Shown piece after piece: positions 1 through 11,200 of a stretch of DNA of 64,000 nt. The position numbers and the translations under genes were made by a program. Positions within the stretch are counted from its first letter, which is position 1, and the number at the start of each line of letters is the position of its first letter. The stretch comes from an uncultured delta proteobacterium (GTDB lineage: Bacteria > Desulfobacterota > RBG-13-43-22): the NCBI GenBank assembly GCA_963790475.1, contig CAWBOS010000010.1, positions 832,001 to 896,000 on the forward strand, given 5' to 3'. The notes below the pieces were generated by a model that did not search any database, was not told the DNA's origin, and was given only the letters and a program-made list of their open reading frames with translations.

Positions 1-423
1 AACGGTAACCCCTCCGCCGGAGCGGTTAAAAAACAGTTCATCTTTGATGATCTCGGCCATCACCTGATCAACGGTCATGGTTTCACCCACCGCGGTCAAG
101 GATTTAGAGGGGCAGACTTCGACACAATCCAGGCAGCGGTTGCATCGGCTGCGGATAATCTTACGCCCTTTTTGAGGATGGAAGGTGATGGCCTTTTGCG
201 AACAGGCCTCAAGGCATTTCAGACAGGCGATGCAAAGATCATCGTGGGTCATCAATTCCGGGTAGCTCTTGCCGGATTCGGGGTTGTGACACCAGAGACA
301 TTGGAGGGGACAGCCCTTGGTGAAGACCGTGGTCCTTATTCCCGGGCCGTCATTGGTACTAAATCCTTGAATTAAAAAAATCGATCCCCGGTTATCTACT
401 GTCGCCTGATGAAACTTGTTCAT
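1..423 (-). CDS. Glycyl-radical enzyme activating enzyme (radical SAM), runs off the left edge of the window
   Basis: Manual translation from ATG at 423: MNKFHQATVDNRGSIFLIQGFSTNDGPGIRTTVFTKGCPLQCLWCHNPES. Has the CxxxCxxC motif, a ferredoxin-like insert (CIACLKCLEAC / CNRCLDCVEVC) and SGGGVTV. Absent from the ORF track because it has no stop in the window. Confidence 0.92.
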   Translation of the reverse strand, partial: MNKFHQATVDNRGSIFLIQGFSTNDGPGIRTTVFTKGCPLQCLWCHNPESGKSYPELMTHDDLCIACLKCLEACSQKAITFHPQKGRKIIRSRCNRCLDCVEVCPSKSLTAVGETMTVDQVMAEIIKDELFFNRSGGGVTV

Positions 424-511
424 TGTCTATTTTTTTGATCCGAAGGGGGCGAAAATAATTTTAGAAGGGTAAACATGATGGTTATGTAAAAGTCGCTGAA
501 ACCCAAATTAA

Positions 512-589
512 GTCATTCCGGCGAAAGCCGGAATCCAGTGTTTCTGAGTAATTTTTAATTTACTGGACCCCGGCTTTCGCCGGGGTGAC
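512..589. repeat. REP-like double-hairpin palindromic repeat, copy 1
   Basis: GTCATTCCGGCGAAAGCCGGAATCCAG...CTGGACCCCGGCTTTCGCCGGGGTGAC; related copies at 31644, 36005 and 39482. Confidence 0.85.
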
Positions 590-625
590 GACTTTTACAG
601 AGTCATCAAATATTATCCGTTTGTG

Positions 626-1426
626 TTACAGGCCCTTAAACTGGGCAGGTCTCTTTTCCAGAAAGGCGCGGACGCCTTCGCGATGATCTTCGGACCCGCG
701 GCAGACCCCCTGGGCGAAACTTTCAAAGTCCAGTTGGGTCTGGAGGTCGTTGTGGCGAAGTCCTTTATAGACGGCCTTTTTCATAAGCTTGATCGGCAAG
801 GCGGGGCCATTGGCCAGTTTCAAGGCCAGTTCCTGGGTAATGGACAACAGGGCCTCCGGAGGGACTACCCTGGTCACCAGGCCGATACGCTCGGCCTCCC
901 GGGCGTCAATCATGATCCCGGTGGTCAGCATTTCAATGGCCTTATCCGGGCCGATAAGCTGGGGAAGTAATAGAGTGGCCCCCAAATCGCCGACCAGACC
1001 GACCCGTACCCAGATGGCCCCAAAACGGGCGGTTTCCGAGGCGATGCGGATATCGCTCAACAGGGCCATTGAAAGTCCCGCTCCGGCGGCTACCCCGTTG
1101 ATAGCGGCAATGATGGGGATTTCCAAATCCCTGATCAGTTTGGCAACGTACCCCGTTCCTTCCAGCAGGTCGGCCTGGGTCTTAGCGGGTCCGCGTCCTT
1201 CGATATTGGCGGCCAGTCGGGCGCCGACATCCGAACCGGAACAGAATCCCCGGCCGGAACCGGTGATCACTAATACTTTTATTTCCTTATCTCCCTGAAT
1301 ATGATCGATGATCTTTCGAAAATCGTTCCACATCTCGGTAGACATGGCGTTCAACTTTTCCGGATTTTCCAAAGTCAATGTGCCAATGCCGTCCTTTTGA
1401 TTTAGGGACATTTTATCGAATTTCAT
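626..1426 (-). CDS. Enoyl-CoA hydratase/isomerase (crotonase) family, PaaG-like
   Basis: FCSGSD, PIIAAINGVAAGAG, SEDHREGVRAFLEKRP motifs; both hydratase Glu positions appear replaced, with Asp in GLVGD. Confidence 0.9.
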   Translation of the reverse strand: MKFDKMSLNQKDGIGTLTLENPEKLNAMSTEMWNDFRKIIDHIQGDKEIKVLVITGSGRGFCSGSDVGARLAANIEGRGPAKTQADLLEGTGYVAKLIRDLEIPIIAAINGVAAGAGLSMALLSDIRIASETARFGAIWVRVGLVGDLGATLLLPQLIGPDKAIEMLTTGIMIDAREAERIGLVTRVVPPEALLSITQELALKLANGPALPIKLMKKAVYKGLRHNDLQTQLDFESFAQGVCRGSEDHREGVRAFLEKRPAQFKGL

Positions 1427-1445
1427 TAGTTCTCCCGGAGGTTTT

Positions 1446-1533
1446 AGGCAAGAGGCACGAGGCGAGAGGCAAGAGCTAAGAAATTTTCTTGGTTATTATC
1501 TGCCTGTCGCCTCATGCCTCTCGCCTCTCGCCT
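1446..1533. repeat. Inverted tandem heptamer repeats
   Basis: AGGCAAG/AGGCACG/AGGCGAG units at 1446-1475, mirrored by CTCGCCT-type units at 1501-1533. Confidence 0.7.
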
Positions 1534-1539
1534 ATTTTT

Positions 1540-4023
1540 TTATAGACTCAACTCCGTTCTCTCAATGATCTGATCCTGCACCCCCTTGGTCATGTCCACA
1601 AAATAAGCGGCCAGACCGGCGGTCCTGACCACCAGATCGGAGTATTGATCCGGATGCATTTGGGCATCGATCAAGGTCTCCCGGTCGATGACATTGAATT
1701 GGGTGTGGTGAATGCCGAGGTCGACAAAGGTTTTCAGCAAAGCGATAAAATTGGCCCCGTTGTTCTTCTTTAATTCCTGCGGGGTGAATTTTTGGTTGAA
1801 CAGATGGGTAAAGGTGCCGGCGTGATCCAATTTGCTGATGGATTTCATGGTCGCCAGAGGTCCTTTTTTGTCCGTGCCGATAACCGGGGAAACGGTCCCG
1901 TCATTGAAAAGATCGAGGTCCTTCCGGCCGTCCGGTGTGGCCCCGGTCATTCCGCTGTAATCATAATAGGAAGAGGCCCCGGTTCCGTCTTCGTTGAAAG
2001 GCCAGCCCCAGATATTTTTAAAACTTTTAAAAGCCTGGTTGGTCTTCTTGTAGAATTCACGGCCGATGAGGTCCACATAATCATCGTCGTTGCCCCATTT
2101 GGGGGCGTCATTGATAAATTGCTGACGCAAATCCTCCCGCCCCTCCCAATTATTTTTCAAGGCCTCGAGGAGTTCGGCCATGGGGACCTTCTTTTCATCA
2201 AAGACCATCTTTTTCAGGGCCGCCAGGGAATTGATGATGGTCACCTGTCCCACCGGCTGGATGATCGTATTGTGATAATACTTGAACTCGCGGCAGTCTT
2301 TGCCGGCTTCCATACAGCCGTCCACCACCGCGGAAAGAAAAGGCTGAGGCAGCCATTCTTCTTCCAGAACGTCCACAACGTTATAAATGGTCACCAGCTT
2401 ATGTAAGAAAAATTTGAGCTGTTCCAGATAGGCCTCCATGGCATCACCGACCGAGGTCCAGGTCACAGGATCGCTGGTCTTGGCCCCGACTTGTTTGCCG
2501 CTGAATTTATCTACGCCTTGATAGAGGGCGTATTCCAGACACTTGGGCAGGACAAAGGTGCCTCCCAAGGCCCTCTGGCACATGGCCTTGCCGGGAACGA
2601 TCCAGCGCATACAGCCGTCGGTCCCGTAATCCCGGGCGTCTTCCAGGGGGAGACCGAGGTTCATCAGAAAGGGGATCATCATATTGTCGTTAAAAAAGGA
2701 ATAGACCCCGGGCTGCTTGAGTAAAGAGGAGACGATCTTTTGATAGAGTCTCTGAGGTGTTTGAGGATGGAGCCTGACGGCCAGGGCCGGCTGATTGAAT
2801 CCTACCTCATCCTTGGCGTCCATGATGATGTAGGTCATTTCATTGGTGGCGTCAAAACCATCGGGGTCCACGCCTCCGATGGTCACCACGCGGGTGATCA
2901 AAGGTCCGGCCGAGGGGTGAGAGGGTGGAATCAAGGCCCCTTCTTCATTGAATTTAAGCAGCAGGTGTTCGACCAGTTCCTGGGCCTGCGCATAGGTCAA
3001 GCGCCCTTCTTCCTTATCTTTTTTATAAAAGGGGTAGAAAATCTGGTCCACCCGGTCCCCGTTGCCGGAGGTTTGGAGGTCAAGGACCCGGACAATCAGG
3101 TTGATAAACCAGTAGAACTGCAGGGCCTCATGCAGGGTCCGGGGCGGGTTTTCCGGTACCCAATCGCAAACTTCGGCCATTTCCTCCAGCTCTGCTTTCC
3201 GCTTGGGATCGGTGGCCTTGGCCGCCTCCTGCCGGGAAAGCTCGGCGAACCTTTTGCCCTGCCGGATCACTGCTTCGGAAGAAATAATCACCGCCTCGTA
3301 AAAGGCTTTTTTCTTGAGAAAGTCTTTGGCTTTCAAATAGAGTTCCGGATCGGCTTTGATTTCCTCCAGCTTTTCTTTGGCATCGGCGATAATCCCTTTT
3401 AATCCGGATTGGAAAATTCTGGAATAATTGGGTGCTCCCACATGGCCGCCATGGCGCCACAGGAAAACGCCCTGGTTGGGATAAAACCAGTAGTAGAGGA
3501 TGTCCTTGGGGAGCAGATTTCGCTCCATGCCATGGACGGATTTTCCTTTCCAATACTTATGGATCTGATGCAGTTCGGTCCGTTTTTCATCGGTCAGTAA
3601 TTGGCTATACTCGGTATCGATGGCCTTGTCCAGCCAACTGCTCCATTTTTCAGGGAAGGTGATCATCGAGCAAGGTTCGCTGGACACGTTTCCGACAATG
3701 CGTTCATTAGGCAGGATATAGAGGGTCCGGTTGTCCAGGAAATGGGCCATGGCCTTGGCCCGGCGGAGGACCATGGGTTCGCCTTCCGAGGCCTTATATC
3801 CTTCGGTGATCAACCGCGCCCGTTCAATACAGAGCTTGACCTCATCCCGGTAGGGGTTGCGGCCTTCTTCCTTAACCCGGGTTACATTTCCTTTGGCGGC
3901 TTCAATCCTTCCCGAACCTCGACTGCTCTTGTTCTGGTAAACGATGCTTTTTCTCATCTCCTTAGTTACCCGCGAAGGGTCCGGAGAAACCTGTACCCCG
4001 ATGGTGCGTTTTGCTAAACTCAT
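1540..4023 (-). CDS. Glycyl-radical enzyme (PFL superfamily), function unknown
   Basis: 827 aa; ERARLITE, ATPDGR, Cys loop DGCMR, C-terminal Gly loop LVVRTAGLAAYF; activase in the same cluster. Confidence 0.93.
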   Translation of the reverse strand: MSLAKRTIGVQVSPDPSRVTKEMRKSIVYQNKSSRGSGRIEAAKGNVTRVKEEGRNPYRDEVKLCIERARLITEGYKASEGEPMVLRRAKAMAHFLDNRTLYILPNERIVGNVSSEPCSMITFPEKWSSWLDKAIDTEYSQLLTDEKRTELHQIHKYWKGKSVHGMERNLLPKDILYYWFYPNQGVFLWRHGGHVGAPNYSRIFQSGLKGIIADAKEKLEEIKADPELYLKAKDFLKKKAFYEAVIISSEAVIRQGKRFAELSRQEAAKATDPKRKAELEEMAEVCDWVPENPPRTLHEALQFYWFINLIVRVLDLQTSGNGDRVDQIFYPFYKKDKEEGRLTYAQAQELVEHLLLKFNEEGALIPPSHPSAGPLITRVVTIGGVDPDGFDATNEMTYIIMDAKDEVGFNQPALAVRLHPQTPQRLYQKIVSSLLKQPGVYSFFNDNMMIPFLMNLGLPLEDARDYGTDGCMRWIVPGKAMCQRALGGTFVLPKCLEYALYQGVDKFSGKQVGAKTSDPVTWTSVGDAMEAYLEQLKFFLHKLVTIYNVVDVLEEEWLPQPFLSAVVDGCMEAGKDCREFKYYHNTIIQPVGQVTIINSLAALKKMVFDEKKVPMAELLEALKNNWEGREDLRQQFINDAPKWGNDDDYVDLIGREFYKKTNQAFKSFKNIWGWPFNEDGTGASSYYDYSGMTGATPDGRKDLDLFNDGTVSPVIGTDKKGPLATMKSISKLDHAGTFTHLFNQKFTPQELKKNNGANFIALLKTFVDLGIHHTQFNVIDRETLIDAQMHPDQYSDLVVRTAGLAAYFVDMTKGVQDQIIERTELSL

Positions 4024-4222: not shown

Positions 4223-4501
4223 GTGATCAAATCATTTAAGCATAAAGGTTTAAAAAGGTTATTTGAAAAGGAACACCCTTATGGAGTTAATCCACAACCT
4301 ATAGAGCGCCTTCGTTATATTCTCGCACTTCTTGAGACGTCGGAGACAGATGAGGATATGGATCTGCCTGGGTTAAATTTACATCATTTAAAAGGAAAAA
4401 GGAAAAATACTTTAGCGGTGAAGATTAGTGGAAATTGGCGAGTTACCTTTACATTGAAAAATGGAGATGTTTTAGAGGTAAATTATGAAGATTATCATTA
4501 A
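4223..4501 (+). CDS. higB: HigB (RelE-like, killer) toxin
   Basis: [14 protein letters not shown]...LHHLKG...ISGNWRVTF...YEDYH; toxin-first order. Confidence 0.92.
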
Positions 4502-4512
4502 AGGAGTTTGTT

Positions 4513-4797
4513 ATGAGTATGCATAATCCGCCTCATCCGGGTGAGATAATTAATGAGTTTTGTGTTAAACCCCTCGGCCTGACCGTTACCAAGGCAGCGA
4601 AATCTTTAGGAATCACCAGGAAAACTTTTTCAATGCTTTTGAACGGAAAGTCGGGGATTAGTCCTGAAATGGCTCTGAGGCTTTCAAAGGTTTTCGGCCG
4701 TACGCCCGAGGGATGGCTAAAACTCCAACTTCAATATGATTTATGGAAAGCAAAAAAGAATGTAGATATTGACCGTCTGGAACGAATAGCAGCCTGA
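4513..4797 (+). CDS. higA: HigA antitoxin (XRE HTH)
   Basis: [10 protein letters not shown]...[10 protein letters not shown]...[11 protein letters not shown]. Confidence 0.93.
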
Positions 4798-6148: not shown

Positions 6149-7696
6149 ATGGCACAAAAACAAGTTGGGGCACGGACGGAGGGCGATGTTTACCAAGGAT
6201 TATTCTTCTGGCGAAATGCCGCATCCCTGCTGATACCAGAATCACTTGTTATTAGAGTTGACATAGAGCATGACAAAGCTGATGGGGTTGATGATGTTGC
6301 AGTCTTCTATGATAGGCCGGGTATAAATGCTGGTGGGTGGCAATGCATGGCTGACTACTATCAACTAAAGTACCATGTTGACAAAAGGGATTCCTATAGT
6401 TCGGTTTCAATTATTGATCCTTCATTTATTAACGCAAAATCCTCATTACTACAGAGATTTCATAAAGCATACAGTAAGTTAAGTATTCTAGCAAATTCTT
6501 TCAGATTAAACTTGGTATCAAATTGGAGATGGCAAGACGATGATTACTTAGCTAAAATGCTCAGAGAATATGATGGTGCCTTACCCCAATCATTTTTTTC
6601 AAAGGAGCTAAAAAGTAAGTTGGGTGAAGTTCGAGAACAATGGCGCGAGCATCTTGAAATGGAGTCAAGCGATTTTGAAGTCTTTGCTAAAACATTGCGG
6701 TTCCAACTTGATCTTTTTGGCCGCCAATACTTCAAAGAATGGGTTAATGACCGATTAGCTCGTGTTGGTTTACGCACCCCATCTGCGGATCATGCTGCTA
6801 GTCCATATGAAAGTCTGGTTCAAAAGTTCTTAATGGATGGTCCAAATTCTTTCGATAGAGAAACCTTCAGCAAAATGTGCCATCGCGAAGGGCTTTTTGA
6901 TCCTAATGTTGTTACTACCCAAAATGATCATGATCCAGTAATCGGCATCAGGAGTTTCATTAGATTTGCAGAAAATATTGAAAACGAAGTAGATAGTTTC
7001 ATTTGTGTAAGTGATCTTTTCGAGGGACGACATCCAATTGATGATGAATCATGGAGAGTTGCTGCTTCAAGGATATTGTTGTTTCTATCTGACACTGCAT
7101 CGAAAAAAGCCTTACGATCAGAGGAGCATCGGCTATTACTCGAATGCCACGGATCACTAGCCCTTTTGGCTGGATACGAATTGAGCAGAAACTCAGGCAG
7201 TCGTGTATACCCCGTTCAAAAACCTAGAATGGAACTATGGAAACCAAGCTCCCAAATATCATTTACAACCCCATCAATACGTATTACTGAAAAAAGCTAT
7301 AAAGATGGTGGTGCTATCGCAATTTCACTTTCGCTTACACACGATATTATGAGGGACGTGGAAAACTATTTTCTTGAAGCCAAGATAAATATTGGCAAGC
7401 TTATTAACATTCAACCAATAGACGGTTCTAGCAGCGGGAGCATCAAAGGTGCCGATCAAGCTGTGCACATAGCAAACGATGTGGTAAGACTATTGCGAGA
7501 ATCAAGGTCCAAGGCATCAGATGTAATTCACGTATTCAGCAGTACTCCAAATTCTTTCATGTTTTTCCTTGGTCAGTATCGGCAGGCACTTGGACGTTTA
7601 CAGCTTTATGAATACGATTTCGGGTTTGAAAGAAACTGCTCCTATTCGCCAAGCATCCTGATACCCGACGATGTCAACCCAAACCATGGAGGGTAA
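6149..7696 (+). CDS. cap4: CBASS effector: Cap4-like endonuclease + SAVED domain
   Basis: N-terminal G..YQ, DDVAV and YQLK (restriction-like D...QxK); C-terminal SAVED signature IHVFSSTPNSFMFFLGQ...LYEY..Y.PS; directly upstream of a CD-NTase. Confidence 0.85.
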   Translation: MAQKQVGARTEGDVYQGLFFWRNAASLLIPESLVIRVDIEHDKADGVDDVAVFYDRPGINAGGWQCMADYYQLKYHVDKRDSYSSVSIIDPSFINAKSSLLQRFHKAYSKLSILANSFRLNLVSNWRWQDDDYLAKMLREYDGALPQSFFSKELKSKLGEVREQWREHLEMESSDFEVFAKTLRFQLDLFGRQYFKEWVNDRLARVGLRTPSADHAASPYESLVQKFLMDGPNSFDRETFSKMCHREGLFDPNVVTTQNDHDPVIGIRSFIRFAENIENEVDSFICVSDLFEGRHPIDDESWRVAASRILLFLSDTASKKALRSEEHRLLLECHGSLALLAGYELSRNSGSRVYPVQKPRMELWKPSSQISFTTPSIRITEKSYKDGGAIAISLSLTHDIMRDVENYFLEAKINIGKLINIQPIDGSSSGSIKGADQAVHIANDVVRLLRESRSKASDVIHVFSSTPNSFMFFLGQYRQALGRLQLYEYDFGFERNCSYSPSILIPDDVNPNHGG

Positions 7697-7699
7697 TAT

Positions 7700-8851
7700 A
7701 TGGAACTTCAAGCTGATTTCACGACTTTCCTCAGCGCGATTAGGCCAACTGAAAATCAGAGATCTGAATTACAAACAGGTCACACCACATTGAGATCAAG
7801 ACTAAAAAGTTATCAAGACCTTTCAAAGATTTTCGTAAGTGATTTTCTACAGGGAAGCTACCGCAGAGTAACCGCCATTCGGCCGAAAGGTGATAAGCGG
7901 TCTGACGTAGACATCATTGTAGTTACGAAATTGCATGAGGACGAATATACACCTGAAGCCGCAATGGACCTCTTTGCTCCTTTTCTTGATGAATACTATA
8001 AAGGCAAGTGGCAAAAACAAGGACGATCACTTGGAATTTCATTGTCATACGTAGATTTGGACCTTGTAATTACATCGGCCCCTTCTGAAGGTGAAATTGG
8101 TGTATTACAATCAGAATCTGTCACTTCAGAAGATGATATTGCCAAAGCTCAAGACTGGCGCTTGCACACCTCCTGGCTTTCATCGAATAGTAGGTTTTTG
8201 ACTGAGAACGCAGCACAACTAATAGAGAAGGCTAAATCGGAAAGTGAATGGAAGCTAACCCCCCTTCGTATTCCAAATCGTGATGCGGGATGTTGGGAAG
8301 ATACACATCCACTTATGCAAATCCAATGGACCAGGGATAAAAATGCATCCACAAACTATCACTTTGTTAATGTAGTCAAAGCGTTAAAATGGTGGAAGCT
8401 TGAAAATTACGATGAGGCCAAGCATCCGAAGGGTTTTACCCTGGAACGGATTATTGGCGACTGCTGTCCGGACGATATATCTTCTGTCTCCGAAGGCATA
8501 GTCCGGACCCTGGAAGGAATAGTGTCAAAATATCAGGTTCTTTCGATGACAAACTCCAAGCCAGTTCTTCCTGATTATGGAGTGCCAGGCCATGATGTTC
8601 TTAGTCGTCTTAGCGTCGAAGATTTTGCCACCTTCTACGATCAGGCCAAGGAAGGCGCCATAATCGCCAGACAGGCTTATGATTCATTGGATCGGACAGA
8701 AAGCGGCAATTTGTGGCGTAAACTGTTGGGCACTAAATTTCCTCCACCACCAGATAATGGGGGAAAAGCAAAGGCTGGCTATACCACGCCGGTCGCTGCC
8801 GCTGCGCCAGGAGGAGGTAGGTTCGCTTCAACAGGAGCGTGTCTTGACTGA
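7700..8851 (+). CDS. CBASS CD-NTase (cGAS/DncV-like, SMODS), CdnD-like
   Basis: FLQGSYRRVTAIRP, SDVDIIVV, LDLV, KALKWW, WRKLLGTKFP, C-terminal GGGRFA followed by a 7-aa tail. Confidence 0.93.
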   Translation: MELQADFTTFLSAIRPTENQRSELQTGHTTLRSRLKSYQDLSKIFVSDFLQGSYRRVTAIRPKGDKRSDVDIIVVTKLHEDEYTPEAAMDLFAPFLDEYYKGKWQKQGRSLGISLSYVDLDLVITSAPSEGEIGVLQSESVTSEDDIAKAQDWRLHTSWLSSNSRFLTENAAQLIEKAKSESEWKLTPLRIPNRDAGCWEDTHPLMQIQWTRDKNASTNYHFVNVVKALKWWKLENYDEAKHPKGFTLERIIGDCCPDDISSVSEGIVRTLEGIVSKYQVLSMTNSKPVLPDYGVPGHDVLSRLSVEDFATFYDQAKEGAIIARQAYDSLDRTESGNLWRKLLGTKFPPPPDNGGKAKAGYTTPVAAAAPGGGRFASTGACLD

Positions 8852-10697
8852 AGAAATACCGCCAAAGGCTATACATGTTGGTGTGCTCAATGCTCAAGCC
8901 ATTCCGGGTGCGGAATTTTTCGGGAAACCATTCTTTGAAAAATTCAAAGAGGTTTCTTTTTGGGCTTTTGCGCTTCGGCTCCACATAGGATCACACTCAG
9001 AATTTATTCCCCAGGCATCCGAATGGTACGCCCTTTTGGAGGATACCTACCCATTTGGAGACATAAGAATTTATCCATCTAAAACAAATGGGATTTCGGT
9101 CACATTTCCACACCAAGACCTCAATTCCTTTGGTAATGAGAAGCTTCCCTGGAGAGAAGGTAAACTTTGTCTCGATACCCCTGTTCAGAGACTTGGTAGA
9201 ATCGCAGGTGGAAAAGACCCGATTGGCGATTATGAGGAAAGGCTTCGATGGTATTTGACACGAGCACTTGCCTGGTTAGATTGTGCCGCCACTAATTCTT
9301 TAATGCAGGATGGTGATCCTTTTGAAATACCATATTATAGGGACTCGTCTCACCAACAGATAATTCATGACGAATCATTAGAAACCTTTCCCTTCTGGAA
9401 GCCCTACGCCGCTAGCTCCGTGGGTGTGGTGGTTTTTAATACGGTATCCAAGACGGATAACCGGGAATCGGTTGTCTGCTTTGAGACCATGAATGGAGCG
9501 CTGATCAGAAAGACTCGCTTCTTTTCTGAGGAAGCACATGGCCCGAAAAACCGCCGTCGGCATACTGGATTTTGGTGGTTATGGGGTGGACCTATTGTTC
9601 TTCTACCATGGAAGGCTCCAACAAACTGGGGAGAACTAAGGGCAGCTGGGAATCATCAAGGTATAAACGTTGACGAGATTCTAAAGGGCATTGCTCCTCT
9701 TGTTCGAGGAAAAGGGGCTACCACTCTTTTGGTCGGATACCCTATACCGCTCCTGTGCGGGGGGGAACCACTTGAGATTTATTGGCACGCCATCATGCTT
9801 CCACCCCTAATGTCTGCAAAGAAGCCACCAAAAGGTTTCAGGCCAACAGAAGGCAACTTTTGGGAAAGGGATCGTCTGCAAGCTTTTTTGGATCAAAAAG
9901 AGTTAGTATATCTGAAAACCGAAAATTGGCATCCGAGTAGAATGCAAGCGAGGGGGCGTTTCAGTCCTCAAATGTGTCAGTCGAAAGTCGGACTCATTGG
10001 ATGTGGCGCGTTAGGGTCCATAGTTGGTGAGCTTTTAGTCCGAGAAGGCATAAAAGATATAATACTCGTAGACAATAAACCGCTCGGCGCCCACAACCTT
10101 GTACGCCATACTCTTTACGGTGATGATATTGGAAAAAATAAAGCGAGTGCCTTGACTGACCGTCTTTCATCCGCTTACCCCTTTTCAAAAATTGTAGCTG
10201 TAAATAAATCCTTACCAATGGATGTTGATGAGCTTGAAGTTCTTCTCATGGATCGAAAAATAGTGATAGATTGTACCGGCAGCGATGCTGTCATTCAGGT
10301 TTTATCGAATGCTTGGTGGGAGATGCCTAGACTATTTGTATCAGCATCGGTTGGCTATAAAGCACTTCGCACTTTTATTTTTACATCTATATGCAATCAA
10401 TTTCCATCAGACCAATTTTTAACTTTATTAGAACCCTTTCTAAATGAAGAACGTAAGCTATGGGTAGAAGACGGTGAAACCTTAGAAGGCCCTGGTTGTT
10501 GGTCGCCTCTGTTTCCTGCGCGTTTCGATGACTTACTGCTTTCTGCAACTGCATGCATCAAAATAGTTGAGGAGTGTTTAATCAATTTCAATCCGGATAC
10601 CCAACTCATTGTTTTTGAGCAAACTTTTTCCGATGGGATATTTACTGGATTCAGTAGGAAGAATCACTCGCTCGAATCTGCGAAGGAGGACGAGTGA
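8844..10697 (+). CDS. cap2: CBASS Cap2 (E2-E1/ThiF fusion)
   Basis: E2-like FPHQ...GKLCL; ThiF GCGALGS, HNLVRH, IDCTG, GCWSP. Start placed at TTG 8844 behind AGGAG rather than at 8679. Confidence 0.88.
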   Translation: MTEEIPPKAIHVGVLNAQAIPGAEFFGKPFFEKFKEVSFWAFALRLHIGSHSEFIPQASEWYALLEDTYPFGDIRIYPSKTNGISVTFPHQDLNSFGNEKLPWREGKLCLDTPVQRLGRIAGGKDPIGDYEERLRWYLTRALAWLDCAATNSLMQDGDPFEIPYYRDSSHQQIIHDESLETFPFWKPYAASSVGVVVFNTVSKTDNRESVVCFETMNGALIRKTRFFSEEAHGPKNRRRHTGFWWLWGGPIVLLPWKAPTNWGELRAAGNHQGINVDEILKGIAPLVRGKGATTLLVGYPIPLLCGGEPLEIYWHAIMLPPLMSAKKPPKGFRPTEGNFWERDRLQAFLDQKELVYLKTENWHPSRMQARGRFSPQMCQSKVGLIGCGALGSIVGELLVREGIKDIILVDNKPLGAHNLVRHTLYGDDIGKNKASALTDRLSSAYPFSKIVAVNKSLPMDVDELEVLLMDRKIVIDCTGSDAVIQVLSNAWWEMPRLFVSASVGYKALRTFIFTSICNQFPSDQFLTLLEPFLNEERKLWVEDGETLEGPGCWSPLFPARFDDLLLSATACIKIVEECLINFNPDTQLIVFEQTFSDGIFTGFSRKNHSLESAKEDE

Positions 10698-11200
10698 TGC
10701 ATCTTGAATGGCGGACTGATTGTGGAAATTACGGGATGATAATCGAAAAGAGTTCTTGGGAAACTATTAAAATTGAGCGCGCTAAATCCATCAACCAAGA
10801 AACTGGTGGGATACTCATCGGCTACTATTCTGATAACAACCAAACCGCCATCGTTTGCGAAGCTACCCCACCCCCAAATGATTCTCAGAAGGGGAGTAAT
10901 TGGTTTTGGAGAGGCGTAACCGGCTTGCGATCACTCCTTCTTGACCGATGGAATCAGAATCAACGGACATATTATATTGGAGAATGGCATTACCATCCGA
11001 CCCAAATAATCGAGCCCAGCATAACCGATTTGAAGCAGATGATCGACATTAGCAAATCGAAGCCCTACCATTGCAGCGAGCCGATTCTTATCATTATTGG
11101 ATGTAGTATAAAAGTCGAAACGCCCGCCCGGGCCTTTGTCTTTCCTAACATCGCAAGGGGGGGCGGACCACGCCAATGGCTTGAATTTACAATGGTTTAA
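10694..11200 (+). CDS. cap3: CBASS Cap3 (JAB/MPN peptidase)
   Basis: ETGGILIG...YIGEWHYHP...PSITD JAMM motif; start overlaps the cap2 stop. Confidence 0.92.
   Translation: MMHLEWRTDCGNYGMIIEKSSWETIKIERAKSINQETGGILIGYYSDNNQTAIVCEATPPPNDSQKGSNWFWRGVTGLRSLLLDRWNQNQRTYYIGEWHYHPTQIIEPSITDLKQMIDISKSKPYHCSEPILIIIGCSIKVETPARAFVFPNIARGGGPRQWLEFTMV

What the first reader, a model, noticed from the sequence alone, without database searches (positions are those of the whole stretch)
1..4023. Glycyl-radical enzyme with non-canonical active-site loops, coupled to a PaaG-like CoA isomerase
Seen: the Cys loop reads DGCMRW and the Gly loop RTAGL. The gene order is GRE, crotonase-family protein, activase with a ferredoxin insert. 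Known: GRE eliminases and HPA decarboxylase use GC[V/L]E, PFL uses CC, fumarate-adding enzymes use CMSP, and Gly loops are usually RV[A/S]G[Y/F]. Arg at the usual catalytic Glu position fits none of these classes. The crotonase appears to lack both hydratase glutamates and has a PaaG-type Asp. Inference: an uncharacterised radical reaction, perhaps on a carboxylate or CoA-thioester with Arg binding the anion.
Basis: partly seen in the sequence, partly recalled or inferred. Interest (0 to 1): 0.72.

Follow-up and report, generated by a model that had tools for sequence, protein, structure and literature searches.

The report
Uncharacterised arginine-loop glycyl radical enzyme
This is an intact gene for an oxygen-sensitive radical enzyme from an unstudied family of sediment bacteria, related to the enzymes that attach hydrocarbons to fumarate but with a differently charged active site and no helper subunits, so it probably starts an undescribed anaerobic breakdown of an organic acid.

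Summary
Observation confirmed: GRE (1540-4023, minus strand; C471 in DGCMRW, G803 in RTAGL), crotonase, and a ferredoxin-insert activase that runs off the window. The gene is not degenerate: dN/dS 0.045-0.049, and C471, R473, W474, R484, D679 are invariant in 120 of 120 aligned rows. The Gly loop is not diagnostic: 48 of 120 have the canonical aromatic residue. No characterised class fits (about 22-36% identity; no NCBIfam cut-off met). The tree places the family's lineage beside the fumarate-adding X-succinate synthases (100/99; grouping with its best hit, glycerol dehydratase, rejected, p=0.0006), though decarboxylases and C-S lyases were missing from it. R484 probably equals BSS Arg508; small subunits are absent. 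The crotonase has the PaaG catalytic Asp; it recurs beside the GRE (9 of 25 groups, 1.3 expected) but is not obligatory; carboxyltransferase and acyl-CoA dehydrogenase pairs recur too. Best reading: radical C-C chemistry on arginine-clamped carboxylates, most likely adding an organic acid to a fumarate-like acceptor (0.38). No structure model was obtainable. The scan had already noted this family on other DNA (e1-2380543). No description found in ten literature searches.

The parts
1540..4023 (-). Glycyl radical enzyme of the CMRW subfamily, 827 aa, intact
   Evidence: PF02901 + PF01228; dN/dS 0.045-0.049
2602..2619 (-). Cys loop DGCMRW (catalytic C471; R473 at the position of the eliminase Glu and of BSS S495)
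2572..2574 (-). R484 codon (RALGG motif, strand beta-6), probable equivalent of BSS Arg508 / MASS Arg492
   Evidence: 120 of 120; aligned with the BssA Arg by hhalign, two columns off in MAFFT L-INS-i
1981..1989 (-). D679-G680-T681, invariant pocket motif (D679 at the place of IseG Arg676, T681 at that of BSS Gln707)
1612..1626 (-). Gly loop RTAGL (radical site G803)
626..1426 (-). Crotonase-fold protein with a single PaaG-type Asp (D147), S119 and W139 in place of the hydratase glutamates; likely a delta3-delta2 enoyl-CoA isomerase type
476..608 (.). Dispersed palindromic (REP-like) element between crotonase and activase; not specific to this operon
   Evidence: matches in 169 200-bp bins of the genome
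1..423 (-). 5' part of the GRE activating enzyme (radical SAM with ferredoxin insert; 309 aa, continues beyond the window)

Best explanation
An active, single-subunit glycyl radical enzyme from the sister lineage of the X-succinate synthases (XSS). Shown: intact gene, conserved C471 and G803, own activase, phylogenetic position, no CXE, no small subunits nearby. Inferred from family knowledge: the activase installs the radical on G803 and C471 forms the thiyl radical. Inferred from alignment: R484 with G487/G488 and the Cys loop keep the XSS-type carboxylate clamp, and R473, H191, Q589, D679, T681 replace the hydrophobic toluene/alkane pocket with a polar one. Most likely reaction (hypothesis): the thiyl radical abstracts H from an organic acid that resists beta-oxidation (branched or unsaturated), and the carbon radical adds to fumarate or a similar enoate; the di- or tricarboxylic product is then CoA-activated and processed by the recurring carboxyltransferase pair, acyl-CoA dehydrogenase pair and the PaaG-type isomerase. 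My confidence that it is an active XSS-sister enzyme acting on a carboxylate and not a CXE-type eliminase is about 0.8; the figure given is for the specific addition reaction.
For: IQ-TREE, 38 rows: the 16-row clade holding the family, the 9-row clade holding BssA-like and MasD-like proteins and one further row form a clade at 100/99; same in FastTree with 192 rows; holding the 16 rows with GD and PDD is rejected, p-AU 0.0006. References checked: L159 scores 1571 bits to 4pkc, L171 1441 bits to 9o8u. hhalign pairs C471-M472 with C493-M494, R484 with R508, Q589 with N615, T681 with Q707; the Cys-loop oxyanion hole and this Arg are the fumarate contacts shared by BSS and MASS (PMC12358834, passages). 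The Arg is kept in 12 of 12 relatives scoring over 870 bits, whatever their C+2 residue. Context within 4 kb in 25 groups with enough flank (of 43 groups, 89 loci): any acyl-CoA gene 18 (6.5 expected from G000), crotonase 9 (1.3), carboxyltransferase 8 (0.5), carboxyltransferase pair 5 (0.08), ACAD pair 4 (0.3), FadH-like OYE 3 (0.35) (labels). Mutase plus carboxyl transferase follow fumarate addition in alkane degraders (PMC5606693, passages); B12 mutase genes lie near the GRE in L060, L067, L191, L196, L197, L217. TRAP and ABC transporter genes occur in several loci.
Against: No small Fe-S subunit gene near the GRE in any of 101 loci (the 11 hits are activase fragments or unconserved ORFs), whereas BSS and MASS alpha subunits need them (PMC13450708 section 4.2). 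Cys loop is CMRW, not CMSP; BSS Y197, S199, W613, Q707 are replaced. Identity to BssA-like 30.5% and MasD-like 32-33% is lower than to GD 34.5% and PDD 36.4%; best PDB hit is GD. The R484=R508 match depends on the aligner (vs 68, 91) and no structure model was obtained. The family is beside, not inside, the XSS clade, and several deeper rows of its clade lack the Arg (P0160, P0165, P0174). A mutase is within 4 kb in only 1 of 25 groups; the window's operon has none of the downstream genes, and its genus lacks close orthologs of the carboxyltransferase pair (at most 42% in five genomes; 39-41% in G000). Decarboxylases (PAD, AAD, IAD, HPAD) and C-S lyases were not in the tree.
Confidence: 0.38

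Rival explanations
1. B12-independent C-C cleavage or skeleton rearrangement of one branched di- or tricarboxylate: R473 and R484 clamp two carboxylates, the substrate radical fragments to an enoate plus a carbon radical (XSS chemistry in reverse), and the pieces are released or rejoined at another position.
For: Two invariant Arg in an XSS-sister scaffold; no gating small subunits, as expected if no volatile hydrocarbon must be trapped (inference); carboxyltransferase pair without a mutase in the 5 pair-bearing groups, where the alkane route needs a mutase before decarboxylation; BSS modelling disfavours a charged carboxylate at the Cys loop (PMC4848970, passages), which an Arg at C+2 could change (inference).
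Against: No GRE mutase among the seven classes of the 2026 review; B12 mutases do occur beside some relatives, and genomes may hold one elsewhere (G000 has four); geometry of R473 and R484 untested.
Confidence: 0.2
2. Radical decarboxylase of the PAD/IAD/AAD kind: Arg residues orient a carboxylate, H is abstracted next to it, and invariant D679 supplies the proton, removing CO2 from an acid that cannot be decarboxylated by polar chemistry.
For: AAD works without an accessory subunit and PAD/AAD lack the Cys-loop Glu; D679 invariant in 120 of 120 and the D-G-[ST] motif is kept across the wider clade.
Against: NCBIfam IAD 373 of 1100 bits, HPAD 288 of 1150; AAD ranks 22nd of 37 PDB hits; known decarboxylases end fermentations, whereas this context is CoA-dependent catabolism.
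Confidence: 0.17
3. Eliminase with a relocated acid/base: D679 replaces the CXE Glu and water (or another group) is eliminated from a hydroxy acid to give a beta,gamma-unsaturated acid, which after CoA ligation needs the neighbouring delta3-delta2 isomerase.
For: PaaG-type crotonase is the only partner kept in the window's lineage; FadH-like reductases recur; best sequence hits are eliminases; HpaB-fold genes (fold of 4-hydroxybutyryl-CoA dehydratase, recalled) near the GRE in L052, L056, L217.
Against: All characterised eliminases and isomerases keep CXE; grouping with GD/PDD rejected; GD His281 position is T318 and the beta-1 His position is V195.
Confidence: 0.12
4. The GRE acts directly on an acyl-CoA thioester, the crotonase supplying or removing an enoyl-CoA.
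For: Nearly all recurring neighbours act on CoA esters; PFL admits CoA near its channel.
Against: No CoA site could be tested; only one Cys on the loop; CoA ligases and transferases beside the GRE fit activation of a free-acid product equally well.
Confidence: 0.1
5. Degenerate or inactive copy.
For: Three deviations from the published Gly-loop fingerprint (T801, L804, M811).
Against: dN/dS 0.045-0.049 against four relatives; RTAGL kept in relatives down to about 80% identity; catalytic Cys and Gly in 120 of 120; activase linked.
Confidence: 0.03

Closest known systems
X-succinate synthases: benzylsuccinate synthase alpha (BssA/TutD, PDB 4pkc/5bwe) and MASS alpha (MasD/AssA, PDB 9o8u)
   Same: Nearest characterised lineage among those in the tree; Cys-Met on the Cys loop; probable beta-6 Arg followed by Gly-Gly; Gln at the Asn615 position; activase with ferredoxin insert; carboxyltransferase, ACAD and occasional mutase neighbours.
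   Different: 30-33% identity; CMRW not CMSP, loop two residues shorter; Y197, S199, W613, Q707 and L492 positions changed to G, V, I, T, G; extra invariant R473, D679, H191; no beta/gamma/delta subunit genes.
B12-independent glycerol dehydratase (PDB 1r8w) and other GRE 1,2-eliminases and isomerases (PDD, HypD, CutC, IseG, YbiW, PflD)
   Same: Best sequence hits; single subunit; same domain content.
   Different: No CXE; His/Asp substrate-binding positions not kept; IseG Arg676 position is Asp; grouping with GD/PDD rejected.
GRE decarboxylases (AAD PDB 7e7l, PAD/PhdB, IAD, HPAD)
   Same: Carboxylate substrates; AAD lacks the Cys-loop Glu and a small subunit.
   Different: Far below NCBIfam cut-offs for IAD and HPAD; different beta-6 residues; relationship to AAD/PAD not tested in a tree.
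PaaG, 1,2-epoxyphenylacetyl-CoA isomerase (T. thermophilus, PDB 3hrx/6sl9/6sla)
   Same: Top PDB hits for the crotonase; single catalytic Asp aligned.
   Different: 198 bits against a cut-off of 345; Trp139 where PaaG has Phe; found beside an oxygen-sensitive GRE rather than in a phenylacetate cluster.

Membership tests
Glycyl radical enzyme superfamily (PFL-like) | PFL-like and Gly-radical domains, Cys on the Cys loop, Gly on the Gly loop | tested here: met
   PF02901 + PF01228; C471 and G803 align with GD C433 and the Gly loop
Glycyl radical enzyme superfamily (PFL-like) | Fingerprint RVxG[FWY]x6-8[FL]x4Qx2[IV]x2R (PMC13450708) | tested here: inconclusive
   R800, G803, Q816, I819, R822 match; T801, L804, M811 deviate; 48 of 120 rows keep the aromatic
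Glycyl radical enzyme superfamily (PFL-like) | Cognate radical-SAM activase | tested here: met
   adjacent gene; within 4 kb in 11 of 25 groups
Glycyl radical enzyme superfamily (PFL-like) | 10-stranded barrel and a glycyl radical on activation | not testable with these tools
   no structure model was obtained; EPR needed
GRE 1,2-eliminases and isomerases | CXE on the Cys loop | tested here: not met
   C-M-R; Arg in 120 of 120; CXE universal in these classes
GRE C-S lyases (IseG/IslA/HpsG) | Arg-Gln-Arg sulfonate clamp (IseG R187, Q191, R676) | tested here: not met
   D679 aligns with R676; H191 and V195 at the other two by anchoring on the next conserved column (my reading)
Formate lyases (PFL, TdcE) | Two adjacent Cys on the Cys loop | tested here: not met
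   single Cys; 22% identity; TIGR01255 104 of 994 bits
X-succinate synthases | Falls inside the BssA/MasD clade | tested here: not met
   sister lineage, outside the 9-row XSS-containing clade
X-succinate synthases | beta-6 Arg binding fumarate (BSS R508, MASS R492) | tested here: inconclusive
   R484 aligned by hhalign, two columns off in MAFFT; same distance to the downstream Lys as the MasD Arg (my count)
X-succinate synthases | CMSP Cys loop | tested here: not met
   CMRW against CMSP in both references
X-succinate synthases | Small Fe-S subunits encoded beside the alpha subunit | tested here: not met
   none in 101 loci; many contigs are short
X-succinate synthases | Adds a C-H substrate to fumarate | not testable with these tools
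   needs assay
GRE decarboxylases | Curated IAD / HPAD model cut-offs | tested here: not met
   373 of 1100 and 288 of 1150 bits
GRE decarboxylases | Phylogenetic grouping with PAD or AAD | not tested
   no stored sequence of either was available for the tree
Aminoacyl radical enzymes | Ala, Ser or Thr in place of the radical Gly | tested here: not met
   G803 in 120 of 120; class described
PaaG-type enoyl-CoA isomerase (crotonase partner) | Single catalytic Asp, no hydratase Glu pair | tested here: met
   D147 in 119 of 121, S119 in 118, W139 in 115 of 121 rows; aligned with PaaG D136
PaaG-type enoyl-CoA isomerase (crotonase partner) | TIGR02280 PaaG equivalog cut-off | tested here: not met
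   198 of 345 bits

The most novel reading that the evidence does not exclude
A new GRE reaction class on the fumarate-adding scaffold: a single-subunit enzyme that clamps two carboxylates with R473 and R484 and makes, breaks or rearranges a C-C bond of an organic acid, in the boldest form a B12-independent carbon-skeleton mutase or retro-hydroalkylase, as entry to an undescribed anaerobic pathway shared by Desulfobacterota and Dehalococcoidia.
Probability: 0.25. Interest if true: 0.88.

Novelty: new variant of a known kind. Interest (0 to 1): 0.57.

Why it matters
The 2026 review lists seven GRE classes and says whole clades lack validation and that activation and subunit requirements limit work on hydroalkylases. 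A subunit-free sister of the X-succinate synthases with its own activase in a three-gene unit is a simple target: it could show how fumarate addition evolved, give a one-chain radical C-C biocatalyst for polar substrates, and reveal how sediment anaerobes attack acids that resist beta-oxidation. Databases mislabel members as formate C-acetyltransferase or choline trimethylamine-lyase. It is one of many uncharacterised subfamilies in this branch, which tempers the surprise.

Tried and rejected
Structure prediction: no model was obtained, so pocket geometry, fold search and any CoA site are untested. Degenerate copy: rejected. Apparent GCVE/GCIE relatives at 46-47% identity flagged by a pattern were mismatches to a second Cys; their Cys loops read CMYP, so no close homolog restores GCxE. 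C-S lyase: rejected. Small subunits and a biotin-carrier gene near the GRE: none in 101 loci (the one motif hit lies inside a GRE). Crotonase as obligatory partner: rejected; five Chloroflexota/Desulfobacteraceae genomes with the GRE have best hits of 43-47% or none; five same-genus genomes without a CMRW GRE lack the ortholog too (best 40%), which shows only joint gain or loss of the locus. Carboxyltransferase pair as obligatory partner: rejected. Expression: three runs held 5-7% of the words and gave only short contigs of relatives; no evidence either way. Promoter/terminator scan at chance level (7 vs 5.0 +/- 2.0; 9 vs 6.7 +/- 2.6). Profile search of 1.84 billion representatives returned no CMRW member among the best 150 (top 914 bits, 42%), so it did not size the family; 4 of those 150 have Arg at C+2 in other lineages (P0165, P0167, P0168, P0289). 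Protein atlas gave generic GRE clusters only, first one auto-named benzylsuccinate synthase. Plasmids hold no member (55 records, best 36%). The crotonase's Trp/Asp spacing recalls 4-chlorobenzoyl-CoA dehalogenase (recalled, not tested; that enzyme was not among the 32 PDB hits). Complex prediction not attempted: no binding claim is made. Literature: ten searches found no description of this clade; most subscription papers are outside the library and no supplements were read, where trees of unnamed GREs might include it.


Full report
1. Observation. The window (G000:C10:832001-896000) carries on the minus strand an 827-aa GRE at 1540-4023, a 266-aa crotonase at 626-1426 and the start of an activase at 1-423; the activase is complete beyond the window (309 aa), and the next genes downstream are unrelated. 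DGCMRW (C471) and RTAGL (G803) read as stated. The host belongs to the genus of the record titled Deltaproteobacteria bacterium RBG_13_43_22 (95% identical GRE, same-genus genome G105). G000 holds five other GRE loci, all with GC[VAL]E loops.

2. A conserved family, not a damaged copy. The homolog search scored 7997 candidates and listed the best 120 at 61-100% identity over residues 300-827. In their alignment (query plus 119) C471, R473, W474, R484, D679, G680, T681 and G803 are 120 of 120, Q589 and R378 119, M472 118, H191 115 of 115 rows that reach it. The Gly loop varies: RTAGL 23, any RxAGL 72, RxAG[FY] 48. dN/dS against four relatives is 0.045-0.049 for the GRE and 0.05-0.10 (three relatives) for the crotonase. 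Members occur in Desulfobacterota, Chloroflexota (Dehalococcoidia) and a Syntrophomonadaceae record. The wider clade was found in 35 of 401 genomes of the host's phylum (E<=1e-200) and 11 of 201 of the class of G402 (E<=1e-280); most of these are sister subfamilies (CVY, CMYP, CMSW, CMAW loops). The metagenome scan (284 relatives, best 80 kept, 77 loci) used the CMRW motif as a pattern, so I used it for context only.

3. Relation to known classes. No NCBIfam cut-off is met (best: PFL2-3 575 of 678; HypD 530 of 1100). The best PDB hit is glycerol dehydratase. Identities: PDD 36.4, GD 34.5, MasD-like 32-33, YbiW 32.9, HypD 31.2, BssA-like 30.5, CutC 30.5, PFL 22.1%. For trees I fetched a BssA-like protein (L159; 1571 bits to 4pkc), MasD-like proteins (L171-L173; L171 1441 bits to 9o8u) and annotated records (the labels GD, PDD and PflD are my inference from organism, neighbours and motifs). 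FastTree on 192 rows and IQ-TREE LG+G4 on 38 of them agree: the family sits in a 16-row clade (100/98) which, with a 9-row clade holding BssA and MasD (100/100) and P0168, forms a clade at 100/99, apart from eliminases and isomerases. Forcing the 16 rows with GD and PDD costs 183 log units, p-AU 0.0006 (the alternative came from the best hit, but the row set was chosen after seeing the tree; no mixture model). Left out for lack of stored sequences: PAD, AAD, IAD, HPAD, IslA/IseG, HpsG, HpfG, HplG, HpyG, HpzG, archaeal PFL2.

4. Pocket, by alignment only (no model was obtained). hhalign of the family profile with L159 (numbering +2 gives T. aromatica) pairs C471/M472/R473 with C493/M494/S495, R484 with R508, Q589 with N615, T681 with Q707, G470 with L492, G193 with Y197, V195 with S199, I587 with W613. 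MAFFT L-INS-i places R484 two columns before the BssA and MasD Arg; the loop is two residues shorter than in MasD and the Arg lies the same distance from the downstream Lys, so equivalence is probable, not shown. BSS and MASS share only the Cys-loop oxyanion hole and this Arg as fumarate contacts (PMC12358834, passages). D679 aligns with IseG Arg676, excluding a sulfonate clamp. Across sister subfamilies the beta-6 Arg and D-G-[ST] persist while C+2 changes (R, Y, S, A, G, E, Q, N): R484 and D679 mark the wider clade, R473 marks this subfamily. Some deeper rows lack the Arg. No small Cys-rich subunit gene lies beside the GRE in 101 loci, unlike BSS, MASS and HPAD (PMC13450708 section 4.2).

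5. Partners. The crotonase's top PDB hits are T. thermophilus and E. coli PaaG; D147 aligns with the Asp changed to Asn in 6sla, the catalytic Asp136 of a delta3-delta2-type isomerase (PMC7497051, passages). S119, W139 and D147 hold in 118, 115 and 119 of 121 rows. It scores 198 of 345 bits on the PaaG model. Of 89 CMRW-type loci, merged at 85% identity into 43 groups, 25 had at least 3 kb of flank (18 groups dropped as too short). Within 4 kb: activase 11, crotonase 9 (1.3 expected from random places in G000), carboxyltransferase 8 (0.5), tandem pair 5 (0.08), ACAD pair 4 (0.3), CoA ligase 4 (1.9), FadH-like OYE 3 (0.35), mutase 1 (0.15), any acyl-CoA gene 18 (6.5); 7 groups had none. The baseline is one genome and the groups are kin, so these are not independent tests. 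Five of the nine crotonases carry the Trp/Asp signature (L006, L053, L067, L076, L085; 50-90% identity). Shared contig lengths hint that three further orthologs (58-65%) lie on GRE contigs (P0347, P0352, P0361; by eye). The carboxyltransferases are MmdA-like below cut-off, the ACADs PimC/PimD-like below cut-off; each pair forms two ortholog sets. Neither pair has a close ortholog in G000 or its genus, and the crotonase has none in five other carriers: the partners are a recurring toolkit, not a fixed operon.

6. Mechanism. Radical installation and thiyl formation follow from family knowledge. A polar pocket with two Arg on an XSS-sister scaffold, inside acyl-CoA catabolism with acid transporters, points to carboxylate substrates and C-C chemistry. 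I rank addition of an acid's C-H to a fumarate-like enoate first (0.38), since mutase/carboxyl transferase/beta-oxidation is the known sequel of fumarate addition (PMC5606693, passages), then cleavage or rearrangement of one dicarboxylate (0.20), decarboxylation (0.17), elimination with D679 as acid/base (0.12), direct action on a CoA ester (0.10), inactive (0.03). An isomerase plus a dienoyl-CoA-reductase-like gene suggests an unsaturated or branched acid; this is inference.

7. Novelty. PMC13450708 (read: first part, outline, passages, sections 4.2, 5.1-5.6.1 in part, 7) lists seven classes; in what I read none has Arg at C+2. Ten searches found no description (listings and abstracts only). 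Also seen as passages: PMC12583861, PMC4848970. No supplements were read. The scan's own notes had this family on another genome and related clades on several; I had formed the XSS reading before that call and tested it afterwards. Verdict: real, intact, uncharacterised subfamily; a new variant of a known kind with a fair chance of new chemistry; interest 0.57.

Noticed in passing
window 6149-11200 (+): Complete four-gene CBASS system: SAVED-endonuclease effector, cyclase, E1-E2 and JAB proteins (PADLOC).
   Followed up: partly
window 4223-4797 (+): Two small ORFs (92, 94 aa) that look like a HigB/HigA toxin-antitoxin pair (recalled resemblance; no PADLOC hit), divergent from the GRE.
   Followed up: no
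window 476-608 and 1446-1536: Palindromic intergenic elements; the first recurs at about 169 places in the genome, the second at about 5. In L006 a small inserted gene pair sits between crotonase and activase.
   Followed up: partly
L077 3033-12944: Four tandem CMRW-type GRE paralogs with different residues at pocket positions 193-195 and 678-683, suggesting a substrate series.
   Followed up: partly
G401 (genome of L008) and G404 (genome of L011): Large GRE expansions: 23 and 13 matches in genomes of 5.0 and 2.3 Mb.
   Followed up: no
G000:C1:180345-182756 (+): A GRE in three ORF pieces (157, 481, 188 aa) in the window's genome: frameshifts, assembly error or a natural split.
   Followed up: no
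phylum sample: 12 of the 15 genomes whose pattern match reads as the MasD-type His-Gln-Ala-Cys-Met-Ser-Pro loop (three translated and confirmed) also carry a member of the wider CMRW/CVY clade (my count); mostly three families, so kinship may explain it. G000 has no MasD/BssA.
   Followed up: partly
L197 4773-11511: Two GREs of the wider clade followed by a divergent B12 mutase.
   Followed up: partly
G000:C12:978306-985657 (L157/L158): An ACAD pair and a carboxyltransferase pair in one acyl-CoA cluster of the window's genome, only 34-42% identical to those beside CMRW GREs.
   Followed up: partly
P0095, P0122: CMRW members (RQAGL sub-clade) on NCBI contigs of 3.8 Mb, possibly complete genomes; if cultured, a route to the substrate.
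   Followed up: no
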